Shown piece by piece: positions 15,650 through 15,785 of a stretch of 19,967 nt of DNA (the stretch's first letter is position 1; the number at the start of each line of letters is the position of its first letter). The notes under the pieces are model-generated. The model ran no database searches and was not told where the DNA came from. It was given only the letters and a program-made list of their open reading frames with translations. Origin of the DNA: Deltaproteobacteria bacterium (GTDB taxonomy: Bacteria; Desulfobacterota; Desulfobacteria; Desulfobacterales; JAUVGT01); assembly GCA_030593645.1 (NCBI GenBank), contig JAUVGT010000027.1, positions 1 through 19,967 of the forward strand. Reading direction: 5' to 3'. The position numbers and the translations under genes are program-made.

Positions 15650-15785
15650 TACCTGGGGCATAAGTTTCGTATGAGTTGCAGGGCTATTCCATAGCCCCAC
15701 AACTCAACTCAGCTTTATACCTGGGGCATAAGTTTCGTATGAGTTGCAGGGCTATTCCATAGCCCTGTAGCTCAACTCAGCTTTA
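15650..15785. repeat. Two tandem copies of a 68-bp unit, each with an internal hairpin, in the SPFH-rtcA intergenic space. The copies differ only in a 5-nt block (cacaa vs tgtag).
   Basis: Copies at 15650-15717 and 15718-15785 are identical apart from that 5-nt block. Each unit contains gagttgcagggctat-tcc-atagccc... stem-loops. The second copy ends on the SPFH stop codon. Confidence 0.8.

What the first reader, a model, noticed from the sequence alone, without database searches (positions are those of the whole stretch)
15650..15785. Tandem 68-bp repeat with an internal hairpin between the SPFH gene and rtcA. The copies are identical except for a 5-nt block.
The two units are 63/68 identical. 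All five differences cluster in one block (cacaa vs tgtag), which lies in the 3' arm of the internal stem. Such clustered substitution in an otherwise perfect duplication is unusual. It suggests either a recent duplication followed by selection on that block (a specificity determinant) or template switching.

The position inside an operon, just upstream of the rtcA RBS, suggests an RNA processing site, a protein-binding site, or additional Y-RNA-like or REP-like modules.
Basis: seen in the sequence. Interest (0 to 1): 0.55.

Follow-up and report, generated by a model that had tools for sequence, protein, structure and literature searches.

The report
Duplicated stem-loop between SPFH and rtcA
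A 68-base stretch carrying a strong RNA hairpin, which sits just after the SPFH (Band-7) gene in an RNA-repair (rtc) operon, has been copied once head-to-tail in this genome; related bacteria carry one such hairpin at the same spot, so this is an ordinary gene-boundary stem-loop, recently duplicated.

Summary
The repeat is real: 15646-15787, period 68, 2.1 copies. The copies are 64/68 identical, not 63/68. They differ by four transitions (not five) within a 5-nt block in one stem arm.

It lies on the sense (minus) strand of an RtcR/sigma-54 operon: b7a-tRNA-like leader, SPFH/Band-7, repeat, rtcA, rtcB. Each unit holds a 15-16 bp hairpin plus a small 7-bp one. TATAAA sits at both ends and at the junction, the usual mark of a slippage duplication.

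Of 15 related RtcR-linked loci, 12 have one strong hairpin 0-17 nt after the SPFH stop. None has a T-only run after it. Sequences differ but pairing is kept, and the stem base matches the window in one clade.

The unit hits no Rfam family and contains no promoter or intrinsic terminator. It was not found in GTDB representatives, IMG/VR, PLSDB or 103 fetched loci. JGI metagenomes gave only matches with unrelated flanks.

Best reading: a cistron-boundary RNA stem-loop (decay barrier or weak attenuator) that was recently and probably neutrally duplicated. The clustered four-transition block is unexplained. Dispersal within the source genome could not be tested. Interest is low.

The parts
15646..15787 (-). 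Tandem array, 2.1 copies of a 68-nt unit. On the sense strand it reads TATAAA-[62 nt]-TATAAA-[62 nt]-TATAAA. It overlaps the SPFH stop codon.
   Evidence: TRF; the repeat finder; sequence
15720..15787 (-). Unit A (next to SPFH). The sense RNA hairpin has 9 perfect pairs, then A.C and C.A mismatches. Unit MFE is -21.3 kcal/mol.
   Evidence: Logan contig L002 carries this variant directly after SPFH
15652..15719 (-). Unit B (next to rtcA). The sense RNA hairpin is fully paired over 16 bp, including two G.U pairs. Unit MFE is -28.6 kcal/mol.
15741..15773 (-). Main hairpin of unit A (15-nt arms, 3-nt loop)
15673..15705 (-). Main hairpin of unit B (15-nt arms, 3-nt loop)
15766..15770 (-). Variable block in unit A: TGTAG on the + strand, CTACA on the sense strand
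15698..15702 (-). Variable block in unit B: CACAA on the + strand, TTGTG on the sense strand
15713..15732 (-). Small junction hairpin (sense CUUAUGCC-CCA-GGUAUAAG, 7 bp) that spans the unit boundary. A second copy lies at 15645-15664.
   Evidence: read from the sequence; this segment is also paired in the MFE fold
15783..16898 (-). SPFH/Band-7 (slipin-type) gene; stop codon TAA at 15783-15785
   Evidence: Pfam PF01145, E=2.9e-35
14589..15626 (-). rtcA (RNA 3'-phosphate cyclase); RBS GAGGA at 15633-15637
   Evidence: Pfam PF01137, E=3e-75
13310..14560 (-). rtcB RNA ligase
   Evidence: Pfam PF01139, E=7e-107
17751..17766 (-). Sigma-54 promoter TGGCAC-N5-TTGCT. It is the only perfect match in the window and presumably drives the operon.
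17506..17570 (-). tRNA-like element in the operon leader (the band-7-associated tRNA). It is context for the finding, not part of the repeat.
   Evidence: Rfam RF00005, 44.4 bits; present in 15 of the 18 related loci scanned; named in bioRxiv 10.1101/312249
18022..19644 (+). rtcR (CARF plus sigma-54 activator), transcribed divergently
   Evidence: Pfam PF06956, E=4.9e-83

Best explanation
The 68-nt unit is the RNA stem-loop module that follows the SPFH/Band-7 cistron in RtcR-controlled b7a-tRNA / Band-7 / rtcA / rtcB operons.

In this lineage the module was duplicated once, head-to-tail, by slippage between two TATAAA hexamers 68 nt apart.

On the operon transcript the stable hairpin has no U-tract. 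I infer that it acts as a barrier to 3'->5' exonucleases, as a processing boundary, or as a weak transcriptional attenuator. Any of these would set the Band-7 message level apart from rtcA/rtcB without stopping read-through.

The second copy is probably a recent and largely neutral addition. One copy (A) already carries two stem-breaking changes.

**Shown:** the repeat, its hairpins, its place in the operon, the microhomology, and the positional hairpin with conserved pairing in relatives.

**Inferred:** the RNA-level function, the slippage mechanism, and the neutrality of the duplication.
For: - The repeat and its hairpins are real.
- TATAAA sits at both ends and at the junction.
- Operon context: rtcR, a sigma-54 promoter, the tRNA-like leader, Band_7, RTC and RtcB.
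- The same gene order occurs in relatives.
- Of 15 distinct RtcR-linked loci with readable sequence after SPFH, 12 have one strong hairpin (-19 to -36 kcal/mol) starting 0-17 nt after the SPFH stop. None has a T-only run after it.
- In a 6-sequence alignment, 7 of 14 stem pairs show compensatory changes.
- The stem base (C)UGAGUU...AACUCA is shared by the window and L005.
- In stand-alone SPFH orthologues, mostly from Planctomycetes, many hairpins at the same position are followed by a T-run, like canonical terminators. Hairpins after this gene are therefore ordinary 3'-end elements.
- The array contains no sigma-70 promoter and no intrinsic terminator. It hits no Rfam family.
Against: - There are no expression data, so the RNA role is inferred from position and conservation only.
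- Three RtcR-linked relatives with short or different spacers (L018, L056, L058) lack a strong hairpin, so it is not obligatory.
- Both DNA strands fold about equally well. Strand, and RNA versus DNA level, therefore rest on operon orientation alone.
- The four clustered transitions are not explained by simple slippage plus drift (P = 3e-4 if independent).
- Dispersal of the unit elsewhere in the source genome could not be examined.
Confidence: 0.6

Rival explanations
1. The unit is a member of a genome-wide REP/BIME- or MITE-like dispersed repeat family that landed here, or expanded here as a doublet. It would have no specific tie to rtc.
For: - It is an imperfect palindrome at the 3' end of a gene, occurring as a doublet.
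- The same 20-kb window does carry other small dispersed repeats. One is a MITE-like element at 5006-5151 with 38-nt inverted ends. A solo end lies at 1507-1526, and there is a 25-nt match in relative L101.
- The source genome could not be searched (one search found not even the window).
Against: - There is no other copy in the window at up to 3 mismatches.
- There is none in 596 Gb of GTDB representatives, IMG/VR, PLSDB or 103 fetched loci.
- The 8 JGI metagenome matches are bare 20-mers with unrelated flanking sequence.
- The two copies are direct, not inverted as in BIMEs.
- Relatives have a hairpin at the same position, partly homologous at the stem base, which points to vertical descent.
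- None of the 18 window ORFs scanned with Pfam has a Y1-transposase (RAYT) domain.
Confidence: 0.12
2. The hairpins are dedicated RNA parts of the Rtc/Band-7 system. They could be a processed small RNA, a decoy or substrate for a ribotoxin whose cleavage feeds RtcA/RtcB/RtcR, or a Band-7/Rtc protein-binding site. The 5-nt block would then tune specificity.
For: - A hairpin at this exact operon position is conserved in 12 of 15 distinct RtcR-linked loci.
- The system is already proposed to use a tRNA-like RNA.
- The four differences are clustered beyond chance.
Against: - Loop and stem sequences are not conserved between relatives, which argues against sequence-specific recognition.
- The loop is 3 nt here and 4-6 nt in relatives.
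- Some relatives lack the hairpin (L018, L056, L058).
- There is no Rfam Y RNA or other hit and no TROVE-domain (Rsr) ORF among those scanned.
- Many stand-alone SPFH orthologues have ordinary terminator-like hairpins at the same place.
Confidence: 0.06
3. Metagenome assembly artefact: two strain alleles of a single-copy hairpin were stitched into a false tandem.
For: - The contig is a metagenome-assembled sequence.
- The only public run found with these proteins is SRR18936878.
- The two variants differ just as alleles would.
Against: - The Logan contig L002 runs from SPFH through variant A with no branch at the bubble opening. Variant B therefore has a different left context.
- L001 begins exactly at the 30-mer ctcatacgaaacttatgccccaggtataaa. 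A break there is expected only if that 30-mer has two continuations, into the next unit and into rtcA.
- A 68-bp repeat is shorter than typical reads, so a standard assembler can resolve it.
Confidence: 0.05

Closest known systems
Intercistronic mRNA-stabilising stem-loops (for example REP hairpins in E. coli malE-malF; from my own knowledge: Newbury et al. 1987)
   Same: - It is a stable GC-rich stem-loop directly after the stop codon of an upstream cistron inside an operon.
- It has no U-tract, so read-through is expected.
- It can occur in more than one copy.
- It is positioned to protect the upstream message from 3' exonucleases and so set unequal expression within the operon.
   Different: - No sign of a dispersed family was found.
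- The copies are direct tandem duplicates rather than inverted pairs.
- The function is untested here.
Rho-independent (intrinsic) terminators after stand-alone SPFH orthologues
   Same: A GC-rich hairpin starts within a few nucleotides of the SPFH stop codon.
   Different: The window's hairpins are followed by CAUACGAAAC, not by a U-run. The terminator scan finds nothing in the array, and rtcA/rtcB follow in the same operon.
RtcB / Band-7 / b7a-tRNA RNA-repair system (Burroughs & Aravind 2016, as summarised in bioRxiv 10.1101/312249); P. aeruginosa PaFlo8 in the rtc locus (PMC13086221)
   Same: The surrounding locus is a member: rtcR, a sigma-54 promoter, a tRNA-like leader, Band-7, rtcA and rtcB.
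   Different: The sources I could read do not mention the post-Band-7 hairpin, and its duplication here is lineage-specific. The 2016 paper itself was not available to me.
Bacterial Y RNAs (YrlA/YrlB) of rsr-yrlBA-rtcBA operons
   Same: They are non-coding structured RNA lying between a protein gene and rtc genes in an RtcR-controlled operon.
   Different: - No TROVE-domain (Rsr) ORF was found among those scanned.
- The unit has no tRNA-like domain.
- There is no Rfam match.
- The unit is a simple hairpin rather than a long terminal stem with an effector domain.

Membership tests
Tandem duplication by replication slippage / microhomology | Head-to-tail copies with no spacer and near-identity | tested here: met
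   Period 68, 2.1 copies, no indels, 64/68 identity
Tandem duplication by replication slippage / microhomology | A short direct repeat at both borders of the duplicated segment and at the junction | tested here: met
   TATAAA (sense strand) at 15787-15782, 15719-15714 and 15651-15646
Intercistronic stabiliser / attenuator stem-loop | A stable hairpin at the 3' end of an upstream cistron within one transcription unit | tested here: met
   Hairpins of -21.3 and -28.6 kcal/mol start 6-9 nt after the SPFH stop. rtcA follows on the same strand, and the only sigma-54 promoter lies upstream.
Intercistronic stabiliser / attenuator stem-loop | Structure conserved at the orthologous position while the sequence drifts | tested here: met
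   12 of 15 distinct RtcR-linked loci have the hairpin; 7 of 14 pairs are compensatory
Intercistronic stabiliser / attenuator stem-loop | Transcript 3' ends or a step in mRNA abundance at the hairpin | not testable with these tools
   No transcriptome data for this organism
Intrinsic terminator | GC-rich hairpin followed immediately by a U-run | tested here: not met
   No terminator-like site in 15646-15787 on either strand. The tail is CAUACGAAAC.
REP/BIME | Many copies dispersed in intergenic regions of the same genome | tested here: inconclusive
   No other copy in the 20-kb window or in any collection. The source genome is not in the collections.
REP/BIME | Association with a RAYT (Y1 transposase) and a conserved GTAG-type flank; pairs usually inverted | tested here: not met
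   No Y1_Tnp domain in any of the 18 window ORFs scanned. The copies are direct. GTAG occurs only inside the stem of one copy.
Bacterial Y RNA (YrlA/YrlB) | Encoded next to rsr (Ro60/TROVE) | tested here: not met
   No TROVE domain in any of the 18 window ORFs scanned
Bacterial Y RNA (YrlA/YrlB) | Match to curated Y RNA covariance models, or presence of a tRNA-like domain | tested here: not met
   Within the array, Rfam at E<=10 gives only weak miRNA-model noise. ARAGORN finds nothing.
RtcB / Band-7 / b7a-tRNA system (the locus, not the repeat) | A Band-7 gene next to rtcB, with a tRNA-like non-coding element | tested here: met
   definition taken from 10.1101/312249

The most novel reading that the evidence does not exclude
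The post-Band-7 hairpin could be a functional RNA component of the Band-7/Rtc repair system. It might be a cleavage-prone decoy or a processed RNA whose ends are handled by RtcA/RtcB or sensed by RtcR. The duplicated copy with its four-transition block would then be a second specificity variant.
Probability: 0.04. Interest if true: 0.6.

Novelty: new member of a known kind. Interest (0 to 1): 0.15.

Why it matters
It matters little by itself. It adds one small point to the description of Band-7-type rtc operons: a structurally conserved stem-loop usually follows the Band-7 gene. That may explain unequal expression of Band-7 and RtcA/RtcB. This genome offers a natural one-copy versus two-copy comparison.

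The four-transition cluster in an otherwise identical duplicate is a neat example of a multi-nucleotide mutation in a hairpin arm. With one instance and no donor template, it cannot support a general claim.

Tried and rejected
- **Rfam.** I scanned at gathering thresholds (whole window) and at E<=10 (15300-18100). Nothing meaningful was found in the array, only noise-level miRNA models.
- **tRNA/tmRNA.** ARAGORN found none.
- **Promoter or terminator inside the array.** None on either strand. The only perfect sigma-54 site is the upstream operon promoter.
- **Dispersed-repeat test.**
  - The exact 20-mer of the hairpin core gave 0 hits in GTDB representatives. It did not find the window either, so the source genome is absent from that collection.
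  - IMG/VR gave 0 hits.
  - JGI metagenomes gave 8 hits, all bare 20-mers with unrelated flanking sequence.
  - blastn of the array against PLSDB found no match.
  - blastn-short against all 103 fetched loci found only the source run's own contigs and those same 20-mer loci.
- **Donor template for either variant block.** There is none in the window at up to 2 mismatches.
- **Quasi-palindrome template switching.**
  - Unit B's TG makes UGGGGC, which is fully complementary to the GCCCCA in the unit's 3' flank. That could explain two of the four changes.
  - The other two changes (in unit A) reduce pairing and have no template, so the idea is left as partial.
- **Deaminase-type directionality.** I rejected it as uninformative, because the pattern reads as C>T/A>G in either direction depending on the strand.
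- **DGR-type mutagenesis.** Rejected, because C/T positions differ as well as A positions.
- **Strand assignment from wobble pairs.** This failed. Unit B is fully paired on the sense RNA and unit A on the antisense RNA.
- **MAFFT alignment of the window unit with relatives' hairpins.** It did not register properly. Homology is visible only at the stem base, by eye.
- **Burroughs & Aravind 2016.** The paper could not be read.

Full report

Yes, with small corrections.
- Tandem Repeats Finder reports one strong array at 15646-15787: period 68, 2.1 copies, 94% matches, no indels, score 256.
- The repeat finder gives two 68-nt copies at 94% identity.
- The 25-nt hairpin core occurs exactly twice in the window and never in 200 shuffles.

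Reading the sequence shows that the copies differ at four positions, not five. In CACAA (15698-15702) versus TGTAG (15766-15770) the fourth base is A in both. Identity is therefore 64/68, and all four differences are transitions. If four substitutions were independent, they would fall within a 5-nt span with P = 3e-4.

The array is unlikely to be an assembly artefact.
- The only other public assembly found carrying these proteins is the Logan assembly of run SRR18936878.
- It breaks its contigs exactly where a k=31 graph must branch for a tandem A-B arrangement.
- L002 runs from SPFH through variant A and stops at the 30-mer where the two variant paths merge.
- L001 begins with the 30-mer that can continue either into a further unit or into rtcA.

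**2. Where does it sit?**

Pfam assigns these genes:

| Coordinates | Strand | Gene |
|---|---|---|
| 18022-19644 | + | RtcR |
| 15783-16898 | - | SPFH/Band_7 |
| 14589-15626 | - | RTC cyclase (rtcA) |
| 13310-14560 | - | RtcB |

- The only perfect sigma-54 promoter in the window (TGGCACatgcgTTGCT, 17766-17751, minus) faces the Band-7 gene.
- Between this promoter and Band-7 lies a roughly 840-nt non-coding leader. It contains a tRNA-like element at 17570-17506 (Rfam tRNA, 44 bits, shortened acceptor stem). ARAGORN does not call it.
- The array is therefore inside the operon, on the sense (minus) strand. It starts within the SPFH stop codon and ends 9 nt before the rtcA Shine-Dalgarno sequence.
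- None of the 18 ORFs scanned with Pfam has a TROVE (Rsr/Ro60) domain.
- The locus is the known RtcB / Band-7 / 'band-7-associated tRNA' arrangement. I take that name from bioRxiv 10.1101/312249, which cites Burroughs & Aravind 2016.
- A Band-7 gene embedded in the rtc locus is also noted for P. aeruginosa (PMC13086221).

**3. Anatomy of the unit**

- On the sense strand the array reads TATAAA-[62 nt]-TATAAA-[62 nt]-TATAAA. A segment bounded by a 6-nt direct repeat has been duplicated, with the hexamer at the junction. That is the usual footprint of slipped-strand or microhomology-mediated duplication. This is an inference from the sequence.
- Each unit holds a main hairpin with 15-nt arms and a 3-nt loop.
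- Each unit also holds a small 7-bp hairpin (CUUAUGCC-CCA-GGUAUAAG) that spans the unit boundary. I read this from the sequence, and the segment is paired in the fold.
- As sense RNA, unit B (next to rtcA) is fully paired over 16 bp with two G.U pairs (-28.6 kcal/mol).
- As sense RNA, unit A (next to SPFH) has 9 perfect pairs and then A.C and C.A mismatches (-21.3 kcal/mol).
- On the antisense strand the situation is mirrored, so wobble logic cannot assign the strand.
- Relative to a perfect palindrome, each copy carries two transitions.
- The array contains no sigma-70-like promoter and no intrinsic terminator. It has no Rfam match even at E<=10.

**4. Relatives**

The closest SPFH proteins are only 76-78% identical. 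Loci came from the look-up of encoding contigs and from 80 GTDB loci. They show the same gene order in Desulfobacterales, Geobacteraceae and Desulfuromonadaceae: rtcR, then divergently the leader, SPFH, rtcA and rtcB.

- In 12 of 15 distinct RtcR-linked loci with readable downstream sequence, one strong hairpin (-19 to -36 kcal/mol) starts 0-17 nt after the SPFH stop. None has a T-only run after it, though L013's tail is T-rich. In several close relatives the downstream flank is A-rich.
- The sequence drifts but pairing is kept. In a six-sequence alignment, 7 of 14 stem pairs show compensatory double changes.
- The stem base (C)UGAGUU...AACUCA is shared between the window and the Olavius-symbiont clade, L005. 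That supports common descent rather than insertion of a foreign element.
- None of the relatives has the module in tandem.
- In stand-alone SPFH orthologues, mostly from Planctomycetes, many hairpins at the same position are followed by a T-run, like classical terminators.
- Three RtcR-linked loci (L018, L056, L058) have at most a weak hairpin in the SPFH-rtcA spacer, so the element is common but not obligatory.

**5. Is it a dispersed repeat?**

- The window has no further copy at up to 3 mismatches.
- The exact 20-nt core is absent from 596 Gb of GTDB representative genomes and from IMG/VR.
- In JGI metagenomes it occurs only as eight bare 20-mers with unrelated flanking sequence.
- The array has no blastn match in PLSDB.
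- Sensitive blastn against all 103 fetched loci finds only the source run's own contigs and those same 20-mer loci.
- One search did not recover the window itself, so the source genome is not in the collection. Dispersal inside that genome stays untested.
- The window does carry other small dispersed repeats (see Noticed in passing), so such families do exist in this organism.

**6. Mechanism**

The best-supported reading is an ordinary cistron-boundary RNA stem-loop.
- It has no U-tract, so RNA polymerase should largely read through into rtcA/rtcB.
- The stable hairpin at the 3' end of the Band-7 cistron would block 3'->5' exonucleases, mark a processing boundary, or weakly attenuate transcription. 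Any of these would uncouple Band-7 mRNA levels from rtcA/rtcB.
- This is how intercistronic REP hairpins work in E. coli malEFG (my own knowledge, not tested here).

The duplication is lineage-specific and recent, since 64 of 64 positions outside the block are identical. One copy already tolerates stem-breaking changes, which fits redundancy after a neutral duplication.

The four clustered transitions look like one or two multi-nucleotide events.
- Unit B's TG creates UGGGGC, which is perfectly complementary to the GCCCCA in the unit's 3' flank. A quasi-palindrome template switch could explain those two changes.
- Unit A's two changes have no template in the window and lower pairing.
- I leave this block unexplained.

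**7. Rivals**

| Rival | Confidence | Main point |
|---|---|---|
| REP/MITE family | 0.12 | Not excluded, because the source genome could not be searched. The positional hairpin in relatives, the direct orientation and the absence from all collections argue against it. |
| Dedicated Rtc-system RNA or protein-binding site | 0.06 | Argued against by the lack of sequence conservation in loop and stem, and by relatives without the hairpin. |
| Assembly artefact | 0.05 | Argued against by the Logan contig breakpoints. |
| Y-RNA-like module | not scored separately | No TROVE-domain ORF found, no Rfam hit, and no tRNA-like domain in the unit. The system's tRNA-like RNA is the separate leader element. 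|

**8. Verdict**

It is not supported as a Y-RNA-like module or a specificity determinant.

This is a new instance of a known kind of element, and interest is low (0.15). The most novel reading still open is that the hairpin is a working RNA part of the Band-7/Rtc system. I give that about 4%.

Noticed in passing
window 17506-17570 (-), within the leader 16899-17750: A tRNA-like element (Rfam tRNA, 44 bits, truncated acceptor stem, not called by ARAGORN) sits in the roughly 840-nt sigma-54-driven leader upstream of the Band-7 gene. An equivalent tRNA hit on the same strand as SPFH, in the rtcR-SPFH spacer (upstream of rtcB in L025), occurs in 15 of the 18 related loci scanned; L012 has no leader sequence and L039 has no hit. 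[quoted passage not shown]
   Followed up: partly
L005 7150-7292, L099 4295-4433, L100 2262-2410, L101 3800-3940, L102 2590-2731: Close relatives carry a conserved element of about 130 nt (70% mean column identity) between the post-SPFH hairpin and the rtcA start. It includes ...GTTT.CT.TGTTT... and ...GTAAAAGTT.TCTGAYAG.GTGAAGC...TTGAAACC... The window lacks it entirely; there the spacer is just the duplicated unit plus the RBS. Its function is unknown: it could be a promoter, a leader RNA or a small RNA.
   Followed up: partly
window 5006-5151; also 1507-1526; L101 7175-7199: A MITE-like element has 38-nt imperfect inverted ends (TAGAACCTATCTCAAAAAT...). It abuts the stop codon of the amidohydrolase gene (5149-6762, minus). 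An identical 20-nt solo end spans the stop codon of the PALP-enzyme gene (1522-2469, minus). A 25-nt exact match to the element's interior occurs in relative L101. Small dispersed repeats at gene 3' ends therefore exist in this lineage.
   Followed up: partly
window 16953-17013; L102 2521-2548: A 28-nt-arm palindrome lies just upstream of the Band-7 RBS (…TTTTAATCCTCGAAATAT / ATATTCCTGCGGTTAAAA…). It shares a 28-nt, 96% identical core with an insertion of about 150 bp in the SPFH-rtcA spacer of relative L102. That insertion is flanked by 17-nt inverted repeats (GAAGCCATCTCAAAAAT). This may be another small mobile palindromic element.
   Followed up: no
L005 10191-12288: In the Olavius-symbiont relative, an array of about 14 tRNA genes with an HNH-endonuclease gene inside it lies directly downstream of rtcB. 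L012 also has three tRNA genes after rtcB.
   Followed up: no
window 6920-12183: The neighbourhood is rich in further RNA-repair and translation-rescue genes. These are a CCA-adding/poly(A)-polymerase-family enzyme with an HD domain (6920-8260, +), two RlaP 'RNA repair pathway' nucleotidyltransferases (8321-9298 and 9360-10145, +), and a 141-aa RF-1-domain protein of ArfB/PrfH type (11758-12183, -) downstream of rtcB.
   Followed up: no
L103 3785-3815: In relative L103 the post-SPFH hairpin is followed by short tandem repeats (TTAATCG TTAATCG TTATTGG TTAATGG). Slippage-prone sequence in this spacer is therefore not unique to the window.
   Followed up: no
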